64,000 nt of DNA from a bacterium. GTDB taxonomy: Bacteria > Fidelibacterota > Marinisomatia > Marinisomatales > UBA1611. Position 1 is the stretch's first letter. The number at the start of each line of letters is the position of its first letter. The notes under the pieces were generated by a model. That model was not told where the DNA came from. It saw nothing but the letters and a program-made list of their open reading frames with translations, and ran no database searches. A program made the position numbers and the translations under genes. Positions 8,485 through 64,000 of the stretch are shown piece after piece. Location of the stretch: the NCBI GenBank assembly GCA_038127595.1, contig JAYPIC010000001.1, forward strand, positions 19,399-83,398. The letters run 5' to 3'.

Positions 8485-9150
8485 ATGAAATTATATTTTA
8501 ATTCTAAACTTTTTCAAAAAGCATTAGCTGCTTTATCTGGGGGCTTTCTAGTTTTATTTTTGCTTGGTCATTTAGCTGGCAATTTGCAGCTATTCATACC
8601 TGGAGAATTAGGACAAAAACAATTTAACGCATATGCTCTTTTCATGACTACAAATCCTGCTGTAATTGCATTATCATATATAACATATTCATCAATTATT
8701 TTACATTCAATTTTAACGATTTATTTGGTTTTAAAGTCTAGACTTGCTAGGCCCATAGGATACCATGTTAGTACTGGAACAGGTAATAGTAGTTGGTCTT
8801 CAAGAAACATGGCTTTTTTAGGCACAATGTTATTAATATTTTTAATAATTCATTTGAGAAGTTTTTGGTATGAAATGCATTTTGGAGATATTGGACTTGA
8901 TAAATGGGGTAACAAAGATTTGCATACAGTAACAGTTACAGCCTTTGATAATATTTTTTATACTGGATTTTATGTTATTTCGATGGTGATGCTTGCATTT
9001 CATTTGTCTCACGGAGTTGGTTCAGCCTTCCAAACCTTGGGTCTTAACACTTCAAAGTATGAAAAAACAATTAACCTAATTGGGAAAGGGATAGCAGTGT
9101 TGATACCTCTAGTTTTTGCTAGTATCCCTATTACACTTTATGTTAGATAG
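8485..9150 (+). CDS. sdhC: Succinate dehydrogenase/fumarate reductase cytochrome b subunit (single-subunit b558 type)
   Basis: 221-aa polytopic membrane protein with conserved His residues ([32 protein letters not shown]). It lies immediately upstream of sdhA/sdhB and overlaps them. Confidence 0.8.
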
Positions 9151-11053
9151 TAAAATACCAAAAGGAGCATTAGCTAATAAATGGTCTGATTACAAGTCAA
9201 AAGTTCCATTAGTTAGTCCTGCCAACAAACTTAATTTAGATGTAATCATCGTTGGTACTGGTTTAGCAGGTGCTTCCGCTGCCTCATCTCTTGCTGAAAT
9301 GGGTTACAACGTGAAAGCTTTTTGTTTTCAAGATAGTCCAAGAAGAGCGCACTCAATTGCAGCCCAAGGAGGGATAAATGCAGCAAAAAATTATCAGAAT
9401 GATGGAGATAGCGTTTACAGATTATTTTATGATACTATAAAGGGTGGTGACTATAGATCCCGTGAAGCAAATGTCCATAGGTTAGCAGAAGTAAGTACAA
9501 ATATTATAGATCAATGTGTAGCTCAAGGTGTCCCTTTTGCAAGAGAATATGGTGGGACCCTAGATAATAGATCATTTGGAGGTGTCCAGGTATCTCGAAC
9601 ATTTTATGCAAGAGGGCAAACTGGGCAACAGCTTCTTTTGGGTGCTTACAGTGCTTTGAGTAGACAAATAAGCAGAGGCACTGTGCAGATGTATAATAGG
9701 CATGAAATGCTTGATGTTGTTATGATTGATGGCGTTGCTAGAGGTATAATTGCAAGAAATTTACTTACGGGCCAATATGAGCGTTACTTTGGGCATGCAG
9801 TTGTTTTGGCAACTGGAGGTTATGGCAATGTTTTTTACCTATCTACAAATGCAATGGGAAGTAACGTAACAGCTGCGTGGAAAGCGTATAAGAGAGGAGC
9901 AATGTTTGGGAATCCTTGTTTTACGCAGATACATCCTACCTGTATTCCTGTATCAGGAGATTATCAATCAAAATTAACATTGATGTCCGAATCACTTAGG
10001 AATGATGGCAGAATTTGGGTTCCTCTAAAGAAAGGTGATTCTAGGCTACCTGAGGATATTCCTGAAGATGAACGAGATTATTATCTTGAAAGGAAATATC
10101 CAGCTTTTGGTAATCTTGTCCCTAGGGATATAGCTTCTAGAGCAGCGAAGGAAAGATGTGATGATGGATATGGTGTCGGCCAAACAAAAATGGCTGTGTA
10201 TCTTGACTTTAAGGATGCTATTAATAATTTAGGTGAAGATACTGTGAGATCTAGATATGGGAATCTCTTCCAAATGTATAATAAAATAACAGGTGAAAAC
10301 CCATACAAAACACCGATGAGAATTTATCCTGCAGTACATTACACTATGGGGGGATTATGGGTAGATTATAATCTAATGACTACTGTACCTGGGTTATATT
10401 CAATTGGAGAATCAAATTTTTCAGATCATGGAGCAAATAGGTTAGGCGCCTCTGCTTTGATGCAAGGCCTTGCTGATGGTTATTTTGTTCTGCCTTATAC
10501 TATTGGAGAATATTTATCTAAAGAAATTAGGACAGATAGAATATCGACAGAGGATGAACACTTTGTTATTGCTGAAAAAGAAACAAGAAAACGGAATGAA
10601 AAATTACTCAATATTAAAGGTAAAAAAAGTGTAGAGAGCTTGCACAGGGAATTGGGTAAAATTATGTGGGATAACTGTGGAATGTCTAGAAATGAAAAAG
10701 ATTTAAAAAATGCGCTAACTCAGATAAAAGACCTTAAAAAAGATTTTTGGCAAAATATTTTTGTACCTGGTTCTGATAATGAACTAAACCCAGAGCTTGA
10801 AAAAGCGGGAAGGGTTGCTGACTTTATTGAACTAGGGGAACTTATGATCTATGACGCATTGGATAGAGAAGAATCCTGCGGAGGTCATTTTAGAGAAGAG
10901 CACCAAACTCCTGAGGGGGAAGCGCTTAGAGATGATGAGAACTATACGTTTGTTTCTGCGTGGGAATATAAAGGTGATGACAAGGTGCCAGAATTGCATA
11001 AAGAAAATTTAAATTATGAAGAGGTAACCCCTACTCAAAGGAGTTATAAATAA
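9140..11053 (+). CDS. sdhA: Succinate dehydrogenase/fumarate reductase flavoprotein subunit
   Basis: FAD-binding [15 protein letters not shown], the covalent-FAD His region [20 protein letters not shown], and [10 protein letters not shown]. Start re-set to ATG 9140 (MLDSKIPKG), overlapping the sdhC stop. Confidence 0.95.
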
Positions 11054-11806
11054 ATGAAAGAGCTAACAATTAAATTGAAAGTTTGGCGACAAAAAAACTC
11101 TAAAGACAAGGGCAGATTTGTTGATTATGATGTTCCTGGTCTTAATGAGCATATGTCTTTTTTAGAAATGTTAGATGTTTTAAACGAACGTTTAATTTCA
11201 TTAGGAGAGGAGCCAATTGCTTTTGATCATGATTGTAGAGAAGGAATTTGTGGCAGTTGCTCTATGGTGATTAACGGCAAGCCTCATGGTCCTCTGAAAG
11301 GGACAACTACTTGTCAACTGCATATGTATCATTTCAAAGATGGAGACAATATAGTAATTGAACCGTGGAGAGCAAAACCTTTTCCTGTAATTAAAGATTT
11401 AGTTGTAGATAGAACTCCATTTGATAGAATTATACAATCTGGTGGGTATATATCCGTAAATACTGGAAGTGCACCAGATGGTAATGCTATACCAATTTCG
11501 CAAGAGGATGCTTTGTATGCATTCGATGCTGCTGCATGTATTGGATGTGGTGCATGTGTTGCTGCCTGTAAAAACGCTTCAGCTAGTTTATTTGTTTCGG
11601 CTAAAGTATCTCAGTTAGCTTCATTGCCACAAGGACAACCTGAGAGAGACAAAAGAGTAGTGGCAATGGTAGATAAAATGGATGAAGAAGGATTTGGGCA
11701 TTGTACAAACACTGGAGCATGCGAGGCTGAGTGTCCTAAAGAAATTTCTCAAGAATATATAAGAAAGATGAACTGGGAATATCACAGAGCTAACATCAAG
11801 GGTTAG
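11054..11806 (+). CDS. sdhB: Succinate dehydrogenase/fumarate reductase iron-sulfur subunit
   Basis: 2Fe-2[10 protein letters not shown]; 4Fe-4S/3Fe-4S clusters [11 protein letters not shown] and [12 protein letters not shown]. Abuts the sdhA stop. Confidence 0.95.
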
Positions 11807-58878: not shown

Positions 58879-60681
58879 TTATTTAATAAAAAACGTCCTT
58901 CTCCTAGTATTTATTTTTTCTTCAAGTTCGATTATTTTTTCTTTTTCTAACGGCGTCTTTTCTTCTTTAGAGCTCAATTTATCTAATTCTAATCTTAAGA
59001 ATTGGACATCACGATCAAGTTTTTCGAGACGTCCTTTCATTTGTTTAGACAACATTTTTTTAAAATCATCAATTTTATCGCTATCTGGAGAATAATAAAT
59101 ATTCGTATTTCCTCGATCAGTGTCTTCCCAAAATGTTGGGCCACTAAATTTGATTCTATTATATAGTCCTTCCATTAAGTTCAGATAAGTTTGATTGTCA
59201 AAATAAGCAAGGTCATCAAGTACATCTGCAACAATGGTCTCTGCAAAATCAAGGTTTTTAATTTTTATATAATGAAGAGCTAGTCCAATTTGTAATACTC
59301 GCACGCCATTATTTACGCTTTGATCTAGATCATCTTTTGGATAATCTGGAGGATTATCAAGTTGTAAAATTTCTTTTAATAAATGTTCCTGCAGCTCGAG
59401 GTCCCAATTTTTTTCAGAAATGATGATAGATATCTTTTTTAGTTCAGTAGTTAATACATCTACAATAAAATATAGCGAAGGGTTGTTAGCTGCTTGTTTA
59501 TAAATTTCATTACTATAGAATTTGAAATAGAAGTATCCCATTTTTAGCAAATCAATTTTATTTTTATCAACATAACCTTGCAAAAGAGTTGAATAGTGGA
59601 ATGCTAAATTGTATAAATTCCTTGGTTCATTATTTCTGACTGCATGCTTTATTGCAAATCTCATAAATGTATTAAATCTTATATTAATATCCGTAATTAA
59701 ACTATCTTGTTCGAGTTCTAAGGCTAAAAGCCCTACTGAGCTAATTTCATTAGCGATAAGAGAAGCTAGTTCATATTCTCCGTTCTCCATTTTTCGTATA
59801 TATGCATTACCCATCATTTTAAAAGATTTTACTTCGTAAAATGTTTTTCTATCTTCTATATCTTTATATTGGTGTTCAACATATGTTCTGAAAGTTGGAT
59901 TATTTCTAATGGTATCTGTAGCAGTAAAAAATTTTGGATCATAGGAATCCTTGTTCATCATATACACTCTTACTGTATCACCAACCCGTCGAATGATTTC
60001 TGTTTGAGCCTCTTTGAATGATATATATTCAAGTAGGTCATCGAATTGATCTATAGTAGACATTAATTGATGCTGATAATGTTCAATAACTCTACTATCA
60101 TTCATTGTAAGTTGTACGGGCTTTTGCTTTAACCTTTTTATGTCAGCAATATTCAGCGAATAGAGTTTTCTAATTACATTATCTGTTTTTGAATAGAGTA
60201 AGATGTAAAATATGTATGGCAATGATAAAACAGAAGATAGGGGAAGGTAAATGTAAGTATTTAACATGACACTAGATAGCCTATCCATTGGTTCAAAATA
60301 GTACATAATTATTGTTGAATGAATAGACGCAAGAATTAAAAACCATATGAAGATAAGACTTATCCAATCTCTAACGAACAGGTCCATCAATTTTGGAGTG
60401 GATTCTGCTGCTATTGCAATGACAATTATCAATGTACCTAAAACTGTAGCTAATACTCCTCCCCATATTTCGGGTGCAAAAGTGAGGTCTACGGCTCCAT
60501 GAGCTTCTTTGTTAATATCAAAGAATTGTTCAAGGAATAAAATGACTTGTGGATAAAGCTGATGAAATAAAGAATCGCTTATGAGAATGACTAAAAAAAC
60601 GATTAGTAAGGAGGCTAGCGATCTGTTTCTATTTATCAGATTCAATGTATTTGCAAAAAATATTGTAATATTACTGTTCAT
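58879..60681 (-). CDS. Uncharacterised membrane protein: N-terminal multi-TM module plus ~430-aa helical cytoplasmic region plus C-terminal coiled coil
   Basis: About 5 hydrophobic helices in the first ~170 aa; the remainder is helical and Tyr/Asn/Lys-rich. C-terminal heptad-like GRLEKLDRDVQFLRLELDKLSSKEEKTPLEKEKIIELEEKI. No family confidently recognised. Confidence 0.5.
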   Translation of the reverse strand: MNSNITIFFANTLNLINRNRSLASLLIVFLVILISDSLFHQLYPQVILFLEQFFDINKEAHGAVDLTFAPEIWGGVLATVLGTLIIVIAIAAESTPKLMDLFVRDWISLIFIWFLILASIHSTIIMYYFEPMDRLSSVMLNTYIYLPLSSVLSLPYIFYILLYSKTDNVIRKLYSLNIADIKRLKQKPVQLTMNDSRVIEHYQHQLMSTIDQFDDLLEYISFKEAQTEIIRRVGDTVRVYMMNKDSYDPKFFTATDTIRNNPTFRTYVEHQYKDIEDRKTFYEVKSFKMMGNAYIRKMENGEYELASLIANEISSVGLLALELEQDSLITDINIRFNTFMRFAIKHAVRNNEPRNLYNLAFHYSTLLQGYVDKNKIDLLKMGYFYFKFYSNEIYKQAANNPSLYFIVDVLTTELKKISIIISEKNWDLELQEHLLKEILQLDNPPDYPKDDLDQSVNNGVRVLQIGLALHYIKIKNLDFAETIVADVLDDLAYFDNQTYLNLMEGLYNRIKFSGPTFWEDTDRGNTNIYYSPDSDKIDDFKKMLSKQMKGRLEKLDRDVQFLRLELDKLSSKEEKTPLEKEKIIELEEKINTRRRTFFIK

Positions 60682-60934: not shown

Positions 60935-61366
60935 ATGTCAGATTGGACAAATAGTCACGACTTAGTATATGCATTTGTTTGTGTTTCTTTTTTAGCAGAT
61001 GGAGATGTTGATGAGTCTGAGAAAGAAGCAATGCGTGGTAACGTAAAAGTTATGCTCCCAGATATGGGAGATGATGAGTATCATCAAGTTGAAAAAGAAG
61101 TTATTGATAAATTTATTGCCCTCGGCGATGAAGCTTCTCGTTTTGACCAATATGGTTCTTCACTCAGTGCAATCAAAGAAATGTTTTCTTCTGATGATGA
61201 TCGTTATAAGGTAATTAAAAACCTTGCTTACATTGCTAGGGCTGATGAATTTATTCACGAAAATGAAATGAAAATGATTGAGCAAGCAGTTAGCGATTTA
61301 GATATGGAAGATAAAGTCAGTTTGGTTAAAACTGAATCTACCCTTTTTGTAGATTTTAAAGGGTAA
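60935..61366 (+). CDS. TerB-like (tellurite-resistance TerB / DjlA-N fold) small cytoplasmic protein
   Basis: Two half-repeats with the TerB-type pattern: FLADGDVDESEKEAM and IARADEFIHENEMKMIEQ. 143 aa; AGGT RBS. Confidence 0.5.
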   Translation: MSDWTNSHDLVYAFVCVSFLADGDVDESEKEAMRGNVKVMLPDMGDDEYHQVEKEVIDKFIALGDEASRFDQYGSSLSAIKEMFSSDDDRYKVIKNLAYIARADEFIHENEMKMIEQAVSDLDMEDKVSLVKTESTLFVDFKG

Positions 61367-61380
61367 TTAAAAAATATATT

Positions 61381-61413
61381 ACGATGCCTGGGTTAATCCC
61401 AGGTATCGTTTTT
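61381..61413 (+). terminator. Rho-independent terminator downstream of the TerB-like gene
   Basis: ACGATGCCTGGG (61381-61392) pairs with CCCAGGTATCGT (61398-61409). This gives a 12-bp stem with one G-U and a 5-nt loop TTAAT. It runs into the T tract TTTTT (61409-61413). Confidence 0.6.
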
Positions 61414-61437: not shown

Positions 61438-61593
61438 ATGTCTGAAAAAAGAACACACAGTGACGATAGACGAAATAACGACCGCAGAAATGCCGATCGA
61501 AGATTAAGCAATGTAACAGTTGAAAATGATAGAAGAACTGATGGAGATAGAAGACAAGATGAGCGCCGTTCTGTAAAGGACCGACGCTCATAA
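61438..61593 (+). CDS. 51-aa (D/E)RR-repeat microprotein
   Basis: MSEKRTHSDDRRNNDRRNADRRLSNVTVENDRRTDGDRRQDERRSVKDRRS. Seven D/E-R-R triplets are encoded by different synonymous codons (gat aga cga / gac cgc aga / gat cga aga / gat aga aga / gag cgc cgt / gac cga cgc), arguing for selection at protein level. AGGAA lies upstream of ATG 61438. The track start at 61384 lies inside the terminator stem. Confidence 0.4.
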   Translation: MSEKRTHSDDRRNNDRRNADRRLSNVTVENDRRTDGDRRQDERRSVKDRRS

Positions 61594-61606: not shown

Positions 61607-62281
61607 TTAACAGTAGACTCTTTCCATTCCTGATAGGAAATTATTTAAAGAAGATAATGCAAGTTCAATAGCTTCTAACGCTTCTTCTTTCTTTTCATCA
61701 GTATCACAAACATCGCCAATCAAATCTTTAATAACTTGCCTGTGAATGATATCTGCAGATTGATGCACCTCAAAGAACTTTAATGTGTCCTCACCATTTT
61801 TAGCACCGTAATATTTCTTTAAACCGTCAATTTTATTTTCAGCAATTTCAGGGATCATAGATTCATAACAATAAAGAGCACTGAATCCAACATGGTAACG
61901 CTCGTCTTTTGATAGTTTCATAAAATTGTCTACCAGCTCTTTTGTTTCTTTTATTGCCACAGTATTTTTTACATCTTTTCTTTTTTTACCCATGCCTTCT
62001 GCAAAACGCATCCATAATTCTGGATGATTTTCATCACCACGCTCTTCATCGATTAAGTTTTCTAGAATTTCTTGTCTTACTGATATATCATCACAGTTTG
62101 AGTGGATTGATGATAAATATCTAGGGAAAGCAGAAACATGTTTAAAATATTGGGCAGCATATTCTTGAATGGTAGATCGATCTAATTCACCTGCATTCCA
62201 AGCTTTATAAAAAGAGTGATTTAGTAAATGATGCTCTTCAATTTTGTTTTCAACTATGTTTAAAAATTCAGTTTTGTTCAT
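61607..62281 (-). CDS. CADD-type heme-oxygenase-like di-metal oxidase (PqqC/TenA-fold; candidate p-aminobenzoate synthase type)
   Basis: HHLLNHSFYKAWNAGELDRSTIQEYAAQYFKHVSAFPRYLSSIHSNCDD ... NLIDEERGDENHPELW ... YCYESMIPEIA ... EVHQSADIIH. This is collinear, as far as I recall it, with the Chlamydia CADD (CT610) family. It includes the E...H, E and H-x3-D-x2-H metal-ligand spacing. Start re-set to ATG 62281. Confidence 0.75.
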   Translation of the reverse strand: MNKTEFLNIVENKIEEHHLLNHSFYKAWNAGELDRSTIQEYAAQYFKHVSAFPRYLSSIHSNCDDISVRQEILENLIDEERGDENHPELWMRFAEGMGKKRKDVKNTVAIKETKELVDNFMKLSKDERYHVGFSALYCYESMIPEIAENKIDGLKKYYGAKNGEDTLKFFEVHQSADIIHRQVIKDLIGDVCDTDEKKEEALEAIELALSSLNNFLSGMERVYC

Positions 62282-62310
62282 ACAGTACTCCAAACGTTAA
62301 ATGATTTAAA

Positions 62311-63591
62311 TTATCCTAGCCATATACCGGCACAGAAAAATAACCCCGTTAGGAAGTGTAATCCAATAGTTCCTGCATTAGCAGGCTGTAATAATCTATT
62401 GTCATAATGCTTGTATAATGTTTTTATCGTAAAAATACTGTAAACTGATGTTATTAACGACACAAGGGATAATGTTGGGAAAGTAAGTGGGTTAGTCCAG
62501 GATAATGCAATGATGCTAACAAACGCCCCTACGATTAATGCAACGTATCCTATCCTTGCTTTCTCTGGCCCAAAAACAACGACTAAATTATTTTTACCGG
62601 TTGCTTTATCACCATCATGGTCAGGAAATTGATTAACGAAAACTATAGCAGCTACTAGAAAGCCTATTGGTATCCCTGCAAATACTGCATCCATGATATG
62701 GGTCATGTCACCACTTGTTTGCACAAGAAAACTACCAGCGACCATTAGTGGTCCAAAATTTAAACCAATTAAAAGCTCTCCCATCCCTTTTCTAGATGCA
62801 AATCTAAATGGTGGGGCTGTATAAAAAAGACCGGAAAGAAATCCAACGATCCCAAGATACAAAATGTTTATGCCTGCTTTATAAATAAGAGGTATACCAA
62901 CAATAGCACTTAAAGCAAAAGTTATTATAGCAACATTTAACATACCTTTAGCTGAGATAAGTCCCATTTGAATACTCCTACTTCCTCCTGAAAAAGGCAC
63001 CATGTAGTTGTAATTTGCTTCATCTGTCCCACTAGTGTGGTCGTAATAGTCATTCGATGTGTTTGTACCTATGTGCAATAAAAATCCGCCTAACATTGTT
63101 AAAGTAAAATAAAACCAATCAATACTTACAAATCTACTTGCTACAGCTGCTCCTAAAAGGATTGGGACAATTGTTGCAGTTAAAAACGGTAGTCTCATTA
63201 TCACCATCCAACTAAATAGCTTTGTTCCAAAACTGATTTTTGGACGGACTTCATCTGCAGACTTATCAGATAGTGGAGAGGTTACACCACAATAGCCGAT
63301 GTGGTTACCTTCCTTATCTTTGGTGGGTGTAATTTTAATTTTGCAAGGCAATTCGGTTCCATCTTTGTGTAAAAAAACAGTGTTTCCTTCCCAAGCTCCT
63401 TTTTCAACGGACTCTGCAAGCCAATTAACTACATGGCCTAATACAATTTGACCAGCACTGAAATCGCTCACCCTACCTTTGCCAATAATTTCTTCTTCTG
63501 TGTATCCGAATAATTGCTGCGCACCTTCACTAAACGTTTCAATTTTACCATCAAGGTCGCAGGTTATTACGCTTTTTAAATTTTTACTCAT
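62311..63591 (-). CDS. PAS domain fused to a MenA-like UbiA-family polyprenyltransferase
   Basis: N-terminal ~115 aa carry the PAS pattern (ITCDLDGKIETFSEGAQQLFGYTEEEIIGKGRVSDF ... FLHKDGTELPCKIKITPTKDKEGNHIGYCGV). This is followed by about 8 TM helices with both UbiA Asp-rich motifs in the MenA form (NDYYDHTSGTD; DHDGDKATGKNNL). Start re-set to ATG 63591. Confidence 0.8.
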   Translation of the reverse strand: MSKNLKSVITCDLDGKIETFSEGAQQLFGYTEEEIIGKGRVSDFSAGQIVLGHVVNWLAESVEKGAWEGNTVFLHKDGTELPCKIKITPTKDKEGNHIGYCGVTSPLSDKSADEVRPKISFGTKLFSWMVIMRLPFLTATIVPILLGAAVASRFVSIDWFYFTLTMLGGFLLHIGTNTSNDYYDHTSGTDEANYNYMVPFSGGSRSIQMGLISAKGMLNVAIITFALSAIVGIPLIYKAGINILYLGIVGFLSGLFYTAPPFRFASRKGMGELLIGLNFGPLMVAGSFLVQTSGDMTHIMDAVFAGIPIGFLVAAIVFVNQFPDHDGDKATGKNNLVVVFGPEKARIGYVALIVGAFVSIIALSWTNPLTFPTLSLVSLITSVYSIFTIKTLYKHYDNRLLQPANAGTIGLHFLTGLFFCAGIWLG

Positions 63592-63681
63592 AATATTTAT
63601 TTCCCTTATCTTTAAAAATATTAAGCTTTTAAATTTAGCTCTCAATATTTTCTTAGAACGAAACATATTTTAATTTTTTTT

Positions 63682-64000
63682 ATGAGTACAATAGCAAAAA
63701 GGATAGCTTTTCATACGCTAGGTTGTAAGTTGAATTTTTCGGAGACATCAACACTGTCGAGAGACTCACTTAAGTATGGTTATGAAAATGTTGACTCTAA
63801 AGAGTTTGCGGACATATATGTATTTAATACATGCTCAGTTACAGAAAATGCTAATAAAGAAACTCGTAAACTTATCAGAAGAAGTAAGCGTATTAATCCA
63901 AACGCATTCATTACTCTTGTAGGGTGTTATGCTCAATTAAAACCAGAAGAATTAACAAATATTGAGGATGTAAATCTTGTTTTAGGCACAGAAGATAAAT
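63682..64000 (+). CDS. MiaB/RimO/MtaB-family radical-SAM methylthiotransferase (MtaB-like), 5' part only (runs off the window)
   Basis: My own translation from ATG 63682 gives MSTIAKRIAFHTLGCKLNFSETSTLSRDSLKYGYENVDSKEFADIYVFNTCSVTENANKETRKLIRRSKRINPNAFITLVGCYAQL. This is the UPF0004 N-terminal domain with its conserved Cys residues. The frame stays open to the window end. Confidence 0.8.
   Translation, partial: MSTIAKRIAFHTLGCKLNFSETSTLSRDSLKYGYENVDSKEFADIYVFNTCSVTENANKETRKLIRRSKRINPNAFITLVGCYAQLKPEELTNIEDVNLVLGTEDK

What the first reader, a model, noticed from the sequence alone, without database searches (positions are those of the whole stretch)
61607..62281. CADD-type di-metal oxidase co-transcribed with the PAS-prenyltransferase: possible head-group-plus-prenylation module
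Seen: the gene starts 29 nt after the PAS-MenA stop on the same strand. It keeps the ligand spacing of heme-oxygenase-like di-metal oxidases (DEE...H, YES, H-x3-D-x2-H). Established: the Chlamydia CADD/CT610 family makes p-aminobenzoate in a self-sacrificing reaction for folate synthesis, and UbiA/Coq2-type enzymes can prenylate 4-hydroxy- or 4-amino-benzoate. Inference: an aromatic-acid-forming oxidase paired with an aromatic prenyltransferase, with no folate genes nearby, suggests the oxidase product may feed the prenyltransferase. That would be a non-canonical quinone or prenylated-aromatic route rather than folate. This is a hypothesis only; adjacency could be coincidental in such a compact genome.
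Basis: partly seen in the sequence, partly recalled or inferred. Interest (0 to 1): 0.55.

Follow-up and report, generated by a model that had tools for sequence, protein, structure and literature searches.

The report
Folate-precursor (pABA) synthase beside a menaquinone-type prenyltransferase
This gene is an ordinary member of the known CADD family, most likely making the folate precursor pABA in a marine SAR406 bacterium, and the membrane prenyltransferase gene next to it looks like a vitamin-K2 (menaquinone) enzyme rather than a user of its product.

Summary
Window 61607-62281 (-) encodes a 224-aa CADD/PabS-type di-metal protein. It starts 29 nt after a PAS-UbiA gene on the same strand, with a GGAG ribosome-binding site and no terminator between them. 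It passes the curated CADD model (277 bits, cutoff 200). It keeps all six metal ligands, the sacrificial Tyr27 and the amine-donor Lys152. It is 46% identical to a solved 4-aminobenzoate synthase.

The organism is a marine Marinimicrobia (SAR406). The gene pair recurs in this group in both gene orders, always tightly spaced. But only 11 of 80 species-representative PAS-UbiA loci have it, and 57 with full flanks do not. None of the Chloroflexota or Myxococcota loci have it, and five of eight sampled CADD relatives sit elsewhere.

The prenyltransferase is MenA/UBIAD1-type, not UbiA/Coq2-type. In relatives it overlaps a MenG methyltransferase gene, follows a men-operon thioesterase gene, or occupies the exact slot of the classical men operon. 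The window also encodes a b558-type succinate dehydrogenase, the kind typical of menaquinone users.

Best reading: a folate pABA synthase sharing a lineage-specific two-gene operon with a menaquinone prenyltransferase. I found no support for a head-group-plus-prenylation module. The genome-wide check for folate and pab genes could not be run.

The parts
61607..62281 (-). CADD/PabS-family heme-oxygenase-like di-metal protein, 224 aa; predicted self-sacrificing 4-aminobenzoate synthase
   Evidence: TIGR04305 scores 277.1 bits against a cutoff of 200. PDB hits: 9pj4 3e-53 and 1rcw 2e-45. Tyr27, Lys152 and the six ligands are conserved as Y25, K150, E79, H86, E140, H173, D177 and H180. An AF2 model (pLDDT 79) has CtCADD structures as its best PDB matches.
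62282..62310 (-). 29-nt intergenic spacer with a GGAG ribosome-binding site (62288-62291) 6 nt before the CADD ATG
   Evidence: Read directly from the sequence. No terminator-like site lies here. Relatives have spacers of 28-43 nt in the UbiA>CADD order and 23-32 nt in the CADD>UbiA order.
62311..63591 (-). PAS-UbiA fusion, 426 aa: N-terminal PAS domain (about 63289-63573) and a MenA/UBIAD1-type membrane prenyltransferase domain (about 62404-63171). The longest ORF reaches 63666, but the start at 63591 is preferred.
   Evidence: Pfam PAS_9 3.6e-12 and UbiA 1.2e-30. The best NCBIfam hits are all MenA models but fall below their cutoffs. The nearest solved structure is UBIAD1, 8djk. Homologues are 424-429 aa. 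AAGGGA lies upstream of the 63591 ATG, and a promoter-like site falls inside the longer ORF.
63618..63645 (-). Promoter-like site TTGAGA-16-TAATAT upstream of the PAS-UbiA start, in the divergent intergenic region. This is a weak consensus match only.
   Evidence: One search found 6 sites in the region against 12.2 expected by chance, so this site is positional support only.
63682..64000 (+). 5' end of a divergently transcribed MtaB/MiaB-like radical-SAM methylthiotransferase, cut by the window end. It marks the upstream boundary of the two-gene unit.
   Evidence: Sequence read. The orthologue in L004, L089 and L091 carries UPF0004 and Radical_SAM domains. It is a conserved neighbour of the pair (cluster c8).

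Best explanation
The gene encodes an orthologue of the CADD/PabS self-sacrificing 4-aminobenzoate synthases. By homology, a di-metal (Fe/Fe or Mn/Fe) centre activates O2. A radical is relayed to Tyr25, whose side chain is cut off and oxidised. Lys150 donates the amine, giving one pABA per protein molecule, for folate synthesis. This mechanism is inferred from the family and is not shown here. The gene is most likely co-transcribed with the upstream PAS-UbiA gene as a two-gene operon. That operon is inherited within part of the marine Marinimicrobia (SAR406). PAS-UbiA is best read as a sensor-fused MenA-type prenyltransferase of menaquinone biosynthesis. The two products therefore serve different cofactors, folate and menaquinone. 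The adjacency reflects shared transcription or lineage history, not a substrate-product relation.
For: CADD identity:
- It passes TIGR04305.
- It is 46% identical to PDB 9pj4 '4-aminobenzoate synthase' and 39% identical to CT610.
- Tyr27, Lys152 and the ligands are invariant or nearly so across 146 relatives.
- The fold model matches CtCADD best.
- It scores far below the PqqC cutoff (57 against 240) and the BesC cutoff (50 against 500).

Operon: a 29-nt spacer, an RBS and no terminator.

PAS-UbiA as a menaquinone enzyme:
- Its best NCBIfam hits are MenA models (151 bits). The 4-HB-type model TIGR01475 gives only 18.6 bits against a cutoff of 180.8.
- The nearest solved structure is UBIAD1.
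- In L072 a MenG/UbiE gene (TIGR01934, 212.7 bits, cutoff 158) overlaps its 3' end by 13 nt.
- In 8 species a hotdog thioesterase gene directly precedes it (gap -1 to +12 nt). That thioesterase is 57-63% identical to the men-operon thioesterase.
- In 13 species it sits between the same flanking genes that bracket the TetR-MenG-thioesterase-MenF-MenD-MenB-MenA-MenCE operon in L096-L105.
- The window encodes b558-family SdhC plus Bacillus-type SdhA. By established knowledge this is the type used by menaquinone organisms.

Patchy pairing: 11 loci with the pair against 57 without, and 5 of 8 CADD contexts unpaired.
Against: The pair recurs in two gene orders, always co-directional and within 23-43 nt. 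This spans lineages only 65-72% identical in protein sequence. That is more persistence than random adjacency would give, so some co-selection cannot be excluded.

No folate biosynthesis gene was seen in the window or next to any sampled Marinimicrobia CADD, so the folate role rests on homology only.

PAS-UbiA misses every MenA equivalog cutoff, for example TIGR00751 at 94.8 against 102.15. Canonical MenA genes are common in Marinimicrobia. PAS-UbiA may therefore be a paralogue with a different substrate.
Confidence: 0.7

Rival explanations
1. Functional co-selection without substrate transfer. The two genes are kept together because both supply cofactor head-group chemistry without chorismate: pABA from a protein tyrosine, and menaquinone from a salvaged naphthoate through a MenA-only route. 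Alternatively, both are placed under one O2/redox-responsive promoter, with the PAS domain as sensor.
For: The pair is retained in both gene orders with tight spacing in the same GcvP-MtaB...CarB locus. In 13 species PAS-UbiA occupies the slot where relatives carry the whole men operon. Conversely, L006 has a canonical men operon and CADD but no PAS-UbiA at the shared locus. CADD chemistry needs O2 (PMC9522330).
Against: It was not determined whether PAS-UbiA genomes lack the men or shikimate pathways. L006 has shikimate genes, a men operon and CADD together, so CADD is not tied to loss of chorismate synthesis. Most PAS-UbiA loci lack an adjacent CADD. No ligand or signal for the PAS domain is known.
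Confidence: 0.15
2. One reading: CADD-made pABA (or a related aromatic acid) is the head group that PAS-UbiA prenylates, starting a non-canonical quinone or prenylated-aromatic pathway.
For: The genes are adjacent and probably co-transcribed. The pair recurs in two orders in marine Marinimicrobia. No folate genes are nearby. PAS-UbiA is not a cutoff-passing MenA. The source of its head group is unknown in lineages where it replaces the men operon position.
Against: PAS-UbiA groups with MenA/UBIAD1, not with the UbiA/Coq2 enzymes that accept 4-HB or pABA. Its other conserved partners are MenG and a MenI-type thioesterase. No hydroxylase, decarboxylase or O-methyltransferase genes accompany the pair. 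The pair is absent from 57 of 68 PAS-UbiA loci with usable flanks, including all non-Marinimicrobia ones. CADD enzymes are single-turnover (PMC9522330, PMC11965152). CADD occurs alone in at least 4 other contexts.
Confidence: 0.05
3. The protein is a CADD-like heme-oxygenase-like oxidase with a different reaction, for example one acting on a free substrate, and not a pABA synthase.
For: The superfamily is chemically diverse (PMC13108848). The second-sphere pair is a hybrid, Tyr141 kept and Tyr170 replaced by Phe, seen in neither characterised enzyme. There is no folate gene linkage.
Against: It scores well above the family-specific cutoff. Both self-sacrificed residues and all ligands are invariant in 146 relatives. 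Identity to a solved pABA synthase is 46%. NePabS also lacks linkage to a folate cluster (PMC11965152).
Confidence: 0.05

Closest known systems
CADD / CT610 of Chlamydia trachomatis (self-sacrificing Mn/Fe pABA synthase; PDB 1rcw, 8va9)
   Same: 39% identity over 214 residues. It shares the six ligands, Tyr27, Lys152, Tyr43 and Tyr141. It has the same family model TIGR04305, and CtCADD is the best fold match.
   Different: It is not in a folBPKA-folC2 cluster as in Chlamydia (PMC4161248). The Tyr170 equivalent is Phe. It comes from a free-living marine SAR406 bacterium and pairs with a PAS-UbiA gene.
NePabS / NE1434 of Nitrosomonas europaea (Fe/Fe pABA synthase). PDB 9pj4 '4-aminobenzoate synthase' has numbering consistent with it (inference).
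   Same: This is the closest solved relative, 46% identity, E=3e-53. Like NePabS, it is not clustered with folate biosynthesis genes. NePabS sits next to glyA (PMC11965152), and here gcvP, another THF-dependent enzyme gene, is 2-3 genes away in relatives. It has Phe at the Tyr170 position, as NePabS does.
   Different: It keeps Tyr at the Tyr141 position, where NePabS has Phe148. It lacks the 9-residue insertion of 9pj4. Its metal preference therefore cannot be read off.
PqqC (pyrroloquinoline-quinone synthase), the name JGI gives to several homologues
   Same: Same TENA/THI-4/PqqC superfamily fold.
   Different: TIGR02111 scores 57 bits against a cutoff of 240, and structural identity is about 20%. 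The PqqC label on relatives is a mis-annotation.
MenA / UBIAD1 naphthoquinone prenyltransferases (for the partner gene)
   Same: The best HMM hits are MenA models and the best PDB hit is UBIAD1. It has the NxxxNDxxD and DxxxD motifs. Relatives have MenG and MenI-type neighbours.
   Different: It carries an N-terminal PAS domain and falls below all MenA equivalog cutoffs. It is only about 30% identical to the canonical Marinimicrobia MenA found inside men operons.

Membership tests
CADD/PabS self-sacrificing 4-aminobenzoate synthase (NCBIfam TIGR04305) | Whole-protein score above the curated family cutoff | tested here: met
   277.1 bits against a cutoff of 200, covering model positions 1-211 of 212.
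CADD/PabS self-sacrificing 4-aminobenzoate synthase (NCBIfam TIGR04305) | Six di-metal ligands (CT610 Glu81, His88, Glu142, His174, Asp178, His181) | tested here: met
   They map to E79, H86, E140, H173, D177 and H180. They are invariant in 145-146 of 146 relatives.
CADD/PabS self-sacrificing 4-aminobenzoate synthase (NCBIfam TIGR04305) | Sacrificial tyrosine (Tyr27) and amine-donor lysine (Lys152) | tested here: met
   They map to Y25 and K150 and are invariant in 146 of 146 sequences. Their roles are taken from PMC9522330 and PMC11965152.
CADD/PabS self-sacrificing 4-aminobenzoate synthase (NCBIfam TIGR04305) | Heme-oxygenase-like helical bundle fold | tested here: met
   The AF2 model is all-helical with mean pLDDT 79.4. 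The top Foldseek PDB hits are CtCADD 8va9, 8vag and 1rcw, with probability 1.0 and TM about 0.62. Model quality is only moderate.
CADD/PabS self-sacrificing 4-aminobenzoate synthase (NCBIfam TIGR04305) | Second-sphere aromatic pair that sets metal choice (CADD Tyr141/Tyr170; NePabS Phe148/Phe177) | tested here: inconclusive
   Here the pair is Tyr139/Phe169, a hybrid shared by 144 of 146 relatives. Metal preference cannot be inferred from it.
CADD/PabS self-sacrificing 4-aminobenzoate synthase (NCBIfam TIGR04305) | Produces pABA with only metal, O2 and reductant; complements E. coli delta-pabABC | not testable with these tools
   This needs an experiment.
CADD/PabS self-sacrificing 4-aminobenzoate synthase (NCBIfam TIGR04305) | Host genome has folP/folK/folC and the rest of the folate pathway but lacks pabA/B/C | not testable with these tools
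   Only 64 kb plus flanks of this genome were accessible. No fol or pab gene was found in the window. This negative result carries little weight.
PqqC (TIGR02111) | Score above the equivalog cutoff | tested here: not met
   57.2 bits against a cutoff of 240.
MenA, 1,4-dihydroxy-2-naphthoate polyprenyltransferase (partner gene 62311-63591) | Score above a MenA equivalog cutoff | tested here: not met
   TIGR00751 scores 94.8 against 102.15, and NF004751 scores 151 against 264. The canonical Marinimicrobia MenA scores 253-267 on TIGR00751.
MenA, 1,4-dihydroxy-2-naphthoate polyprenyltransferase (partner gene 62311-63591) | Genomic association with other menaquinone genes | tested here: met
   The association is seen in relatives, not in this window. 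MenG overlaps PAS-UbiA in L072. A men-operon-type thioesterase directly precedes it in 8 species. It occupies the men-operon slot in 13 species.
UbiA/Coq2 4-hydroxybenzoate (and pABA) polyprenyltransferase (partner gene) | Sequence membership of the 4-HB prenyltransferase clade | tested here: not met
   The only related model hit is TIGR01475, 18.6 bits against a cutoff of 180.8. No 4-HB-type UbiA structure appears among the PDB hits.
Dedicated head-group-plus-prenylation biosynthetic module | The two genes co-occur consistently wherever either is found, together with tailoring enzymes | tested here: not met
   The pair occurs in 11 loci; 57 with full flanks lack it and 10 are truncated. Five of eight CADD contexts lack PAS-UbiA. 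No tailoring genes are adjacent.

The most novel reading that the evidence does not exclude
In streamlined marine SAR406 lineages the PAS-UbiA/CADD pair could be a selected 'chorismate-independent cofactor cassette'. CADD would make pABA from its own tyrosine. A sensor-fused MenA-type enzyme would prenylate a head group not made by the classical men operon. That head group would be either a salvaged naphthoate or, in the boldest version, the CADD-derived aminobenzoate itself. The evidence leaves this open. The pair persists in both gene orders. PAS-UbiA sits exactly where relatives carry the whole men operon. I could not determine whether pair-bearing genomes still have the men or shikimate pathways.
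Probability: 0.12. Interest if true: 0.6.

Novelty: new member of a known kind. Interest (0 to 1): 0.3.

Why it matters
If the ordinary reading is right, abundant ocean SAR406 bacteria make the folate precursor pABA by sacrificing one protein molecule per pABA rather than through PabABC. That bears on vitamin and precursor budgets in seawater. It also corrects the 'PQQ synthase' annotations given to these genes in metagenomes. The partner gene is the more open question. A PAS-fused MenA-like family is widespread in Marinimicrobia and in the Anaerolineae of the Chloroflexota, and also occurs in Myxococcota. In some lineages it occupies the place of the whole men operon. That hints at regulated or salvage-based menaquinone synthesis.

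Tried and rejected
1. I searched the window and 1.46 Mb of fetched loci for FolP, FolK, FolB, FolA, FolE, ThyA and GlyA with tblastn. There were no hits.

2. Literature searches for folate or menaquinone metabolism in Marinimicrobia/SAR406 and for PAS-MenA fusions found nothing usable.

3. I tried to prove or exclude co-occurrence of canonical MenA and PAS-UbiA in one genome. I matched contig lengths and assembly accessions of canonical MenA hits to the PAS-UbiA loci. No overlap was found, so the question stays open.

A 7-sequence alignment worked.

5. I considered the cyclase-family (PF04199) neighbour of PAS-UbiA in 17 loci as a possible kynurenine-formamidase-type source of an aminobenzoate. 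I rejected it as evidence. It scores only 47 bits against the arylformamidase cutoff of 223.

6. The PqqC and BesC identities for the CADD gene were rejected on score.

7. A possible internal promoter for CADD inside the UbiA 3' end (62444-62415) is a 9-of-12 consensus match, in a region that has fewer such matches than shuffled sequence. I did not treat it as evidence.

Full report
**What is at the coordinates.** Window 61607-62281 on the - strand is a clean 224-aa ORF running from ATG at 62281 to TAA at 61607-61609. The mechanical ORF list extends it to a TTG four codons upstream. The upstream same-strand ORF ends at 62311, which leaves a 29-nt spacer. On the coding strand the spacer reads TTTAAATCATTTAACGTTTGGAGTACTGT. 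A GGAG sits 6 nt before the ATG. No terminator-like site lies between the genes.

**Identity of the protein.**
- It matches Pfam Haem_oxygenas_2 (2e-28) and TENA_THI-4 (4e-24).
- It passes the curated NCBIfam model TIGR04305 'CADD family putative folate metabolism protein' at 277 bits, cutoff 200. It is far below the PqqC model (57 against 240) and the BesC model (50 against 500).
- Against solved structures, the best sequence hits are 9pj4 '4-aminobenzoate synthase' (3e-53), CT610 1rcw (2e-45) and CtCADD 8va9. Identity is 46% to 9pj4 and 39% to CT610.
- The experimentally defined residues come from PMC9522330 and PMC11965152. Sacrificial Tyr27 maps to Y25, and amine-donor Lys152 maps to K150. 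The six ligands map to E79, H86, E140, H173, D177 and H180.
- In an alignment of 146 relatives these residues are invariant, with one sequence differing at one ligand.
- An AlphaFold model (mean pLDDT 79) is all-helical, and its best PDB matches are the CtCADD structures.
- One detail differs from both characterised enzymes. The second-sphere pair that switches metal preference is Tyr/Tyr in CADD and Phe/Phe in NePabS (PMC11965152). Here, and in 144 of 146 relatives, it is Tyr/Phe.
- Several homologues carry the JGI name 'pyrroloquinoline-quinone synthase'. On the scores above that is a mis-annotation.

**The organism and the window.** A scan of species-representative genomes places the locus in marine Candidatus Marinimicrobia (SAR406 / Neomarinimicrobiota). 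The nearest genome is MAG MED-G177 at 99% identity, followed by SAG AG-390-N21 and TMED217. The window is about 33% G+C. It encodes housekeeping genes, including IspD/IspF/IspE, an H+-pyrophosphatase, ribosomal proteins, and LpxB/LpxK. It also encodes a succinate dehydrogenase with a b558-family cytochrome b subunit (TIGR02046, 140 bits, cutoff 96) and a Bacillus-type flavoprotein. By established knowledge this di-haem type is typical of menaquinone-using bacteria. No folate or pab gene lies in the window.

**The partner gene.** The upstream ORF has an N-terminal PAS domain and a UbiA-superfamily domain.
- Homologues are 424-429 aa.
- A promoter-like site and an AAGGGA precede the internal ATG at 63591. 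I therefore take 63591 as the start, giving 426 aa.
- Its NCBIfam hits are dominated by MenA models, the best at 151 bits, but all fall below cutoff. TIGR00751 narrowly misses at 94.8 against 102.15.
- The only 4-hydroxybenzoate-type model listed scores 18.6 against 180.8.
- The nearest solved structure is human UBIAD1, the menaquinone-4 prenyltransferase.
- An exhaustive representative search shows that the PAS-UbiA architecture is a real family, with about 20 clusters at 30-50% identity.
- The genome scan confirmed 344 stretches, in Marinimicrobia, Anaerolineae and Myxococcota.

**Is the pair conserved?** I clustered the ORFs around PAS-UbiA in the 80 species-representative loci returned by the genome scan.
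- Eleven loci have an adjacent, co-directional CADD gene.
- Seven of these are in the order UbiA>CADD, with gaps of 28-43 nt. They are the window's own clade (L009-L014) plus L032.
- Four are in the reversed order CADD>UbiA, with gaps of 23-31 nt (L016, L020, L022, L063).
- Fifty-seven loci with at least 900 bp on both sides have no CADD. These include all 16 Chloroflexota/Myxococcota loci and the basal Marinimicrobia.
- Ten loci are truncated.

Metagenome contigs show both orders inside the same neighbourhood. L089 reads GcvP, MtaB, CADD, UbiA, CarB, CarA. L091 reads GcvP, MtaB, UbiA, CADD, TerB...CarB. L018 has the same locus without CADD. On a neighbour-joining tree the CADD sequences fall into two lineages that correspond to the two gene orders. 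Each lineage also contains unlinked members.

Seen from the CADD side, eight sampled proteins at 67-83% identity give three paired contexts and five unpaired ones, in four other settings. None is next to folate genes.

The linkage is therefore real and old within part of the marine radiation. It has been broken many times and does not exist outside that group.

**What the partner does, judged from its other neighbours.** Three independent contexts tie PAS-UbiA to menaquinone.
- In the basal genome L072 its 3' end overlaps by 13 nt a methyltransferase gene that passes the MenG/UbiE model (212.7 bits, cutoff 158).
- In eight species it is directly preceded, with a gap of -1 to +12 nt, by a hotdog thioesterase gene. 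The best models for that thioesterase are DHNA-CoA hydrolases. It is 57-63% identical to the thioesterase inside a bona fide Marinimicrobia men operon.
- In 13 species PAS-UbiA lies between a GldG-like/DUF4340 gene pair on one side and a 917-aa secreted-protein gene followed by an SDR gene on the other. Contigs L096-L105 carry orthologues of those flanking genes (51-77% identity). There they bracket the full operon TetR-MenG-thioesterase-MenF-MenD-MenB-MenA-MenC/E.

Conversely, the 2.14-Mb Marinimicrobia genome behind L006 has CADD next to an MtaB remnant, a canonical men operon 6-9 kb away, and no PAS-UbiA at that locus.

Canonical MenA, about 30% identical to the PAS-UbiA catalytic domain, is common in the phylum. 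I could not establish whether the two prenyltransferases ever share a genome.

- In its favour: probable co-transcription, and persistence of the pair through a gene-order swap.
- Against it, the transferase belongs to the naphthoquinone (MenA/UBIAD1) branch. It does not belong to the UbiA/Coq2 branch, for which pABA prenylation is known.
- Its other conserved partners are menaquinone enzymes.
- No hydroxylase, decarboxylase or methyltransferase genes accompany the pair.
- Most PAS-UbiA genes have no CADD beside them, and most sampled CADD genes have no PAS-UbiA beside them.
- CADD-type enzymes yield one pABA per polypeptide (PMC9522330, PMC11965152). I infer that this fits a vitamin precursor better than a membrane lipid head group.
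- NePabS shows that a genuine pABA synthase need not sit with folate biosynthesis genes (PMC11965152).
- In relatives gcvP, which encodes a tetrahydrofolate-dependent enzyme, lies two to three genes from the pair. This is a weak one-carbon link.

**Conclusion.** The gene is best explained as a Marinimicrobia orthologue of the self-sacrificing pABA synthases, serving folate synthesis. It shares a lineage-specific bicistronic operon with a PAS-fused MenA-type prenyltransferase of menaquinone synthesis (confidence about 0.7).

A softer functional link is that both genes provide cofactor chemistry independent of chorismate or the men operon, or that both sit under one redox-responsive promoter. 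It remains possible, at about 0.15. Direct feeding of pABA into the prenyltransferase is unlikely, at about 0.05.

The decisive missing piece is the genome-wide inventory of fol, pab, aro and men genes in this clade.

Noticed in passing
window 62311-63591 (-); loci L009-L088: PAS fused to a MenA-like UbiA domain is a widespread family that I could not find described. The genome scan confirmed 344 stretches in species-representative genomes of Marinimicrobia, Anaerolineae and Myxococcota. The family shares a conserved N-terminal motif [KTL]S[VTI][IV][TH]CD[LM][ED]G. A full-text search for PAS plus MenA fusion papers found none.
   Followed up: partly
L023, L026, L028, L029, L033, L036, L037, L039, L044, L050, L061, L065, L066 compared with L096-L105: In 13 Marinimicrobia species PAS-UbiA sits between the same flanking genes that bracket a complete 8-gene classical men operon in other Marinimicrobia contigs. 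The flanks are GldG-like/DUF4340 on one side and a 917-aa secreted protein with an SDR on the other. The single fused gene thus occupies the slot of the whole operon. Whether those genomes lost de novo naphthoate synthesis is unknown.
   Followed up: partly
L072:9971-12102: In a basal, high-GC (61%) Marinimicrobia genome the PAS-UbiA gene overlaps by 13 nt a MenG/UbiE-family methyltransferase gene. That gene scores 212.7 bits on TIGR01934, cutoff 158.
   Followed up: yes
window 61438-61593 (+): A small convergent ORF lies 13 nt beyond the CADD stop. It encodes a roughly 51-aa, highly charged peptide made of (D/E)RR repeats (MSEKRTHSDDRRNNDRRNADRR...). It is conserved next to CADD in all UbiA>CADD loci, and faintly in L032 and L091. 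It has no family match. The listed 69-aa ORF probably starts at its internal Met19.
   Followed up: partly
window 61381-61409 (+): A strong hairpin (12-bp stem, 7 G-C pairs) followed by a T-run lies right after the TerB-domain gene (60935-61366). It overlaps the 5' end of the 69-aa ORF call, which supports the shorter start for the small ORF.
   Followed up: no
L009:7819-8610, L004:6514-7296 (just beyond the window end): In the window's own clade only, a second heme-oxygenase-like protein gene (Pfam PF11251, DUF3050/HamA_HO-like, 260 aa) lies between gcvP and the MtaB-like gene, two genes upstream of the pair. It has no NCBIfam match.
   Followed up: no
window 61607-62281 (-), residues 139 and 169: The second-sphere aromatic pair reported to set Fe/Fe or Mn/Fe preference is Tyr/Phe here and in 144 of 146 relatives. 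This is intermediate between CADD (Tyr/Tyr) and NePabS (Phe/Phe) (PMC11965152).
   Followed up: partly
window 8485-11806 (+): A succinate dehydrogenase/fumarate reductase operon has a b558-family di-haem cytochrome b subunit (TIGR02046, 140 bits, cutoff 96) and a Bacillus-type SdhA. This suggests a menaquinone-based respiratory chain.
   Followed up: partly
window 58879-60681 (-), and 60935-61366 (+): A conserved 600-aa protein with no Pfam match sits next to a TerB-domain protein. Together with a cNMP-binding protein and a TrkA-N K+ channel, they form a block that follows CADD in all UbiA>CADD loci.
   Followed up: no
L017 (PBRL01000073.1): A contig labelled 'Chloroflexota bacterium NP954' carries a PAS-UbiA 71% identical to the window's. 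It groups with the Marinimicrobia sequences, so it is probably a mis-binned or mislabelled contig.
   Followed up: no
L019, L021, L024, L025, L034, L035, L047, L048 and others (17 loci): The commonest alternative context of PAS-UbiA has a putative cyclase-family gene (PF04199) upstream and a LexA-ImuB-DnaE2 SOS mutagenesis cassette downstream.
   Followed up: partly
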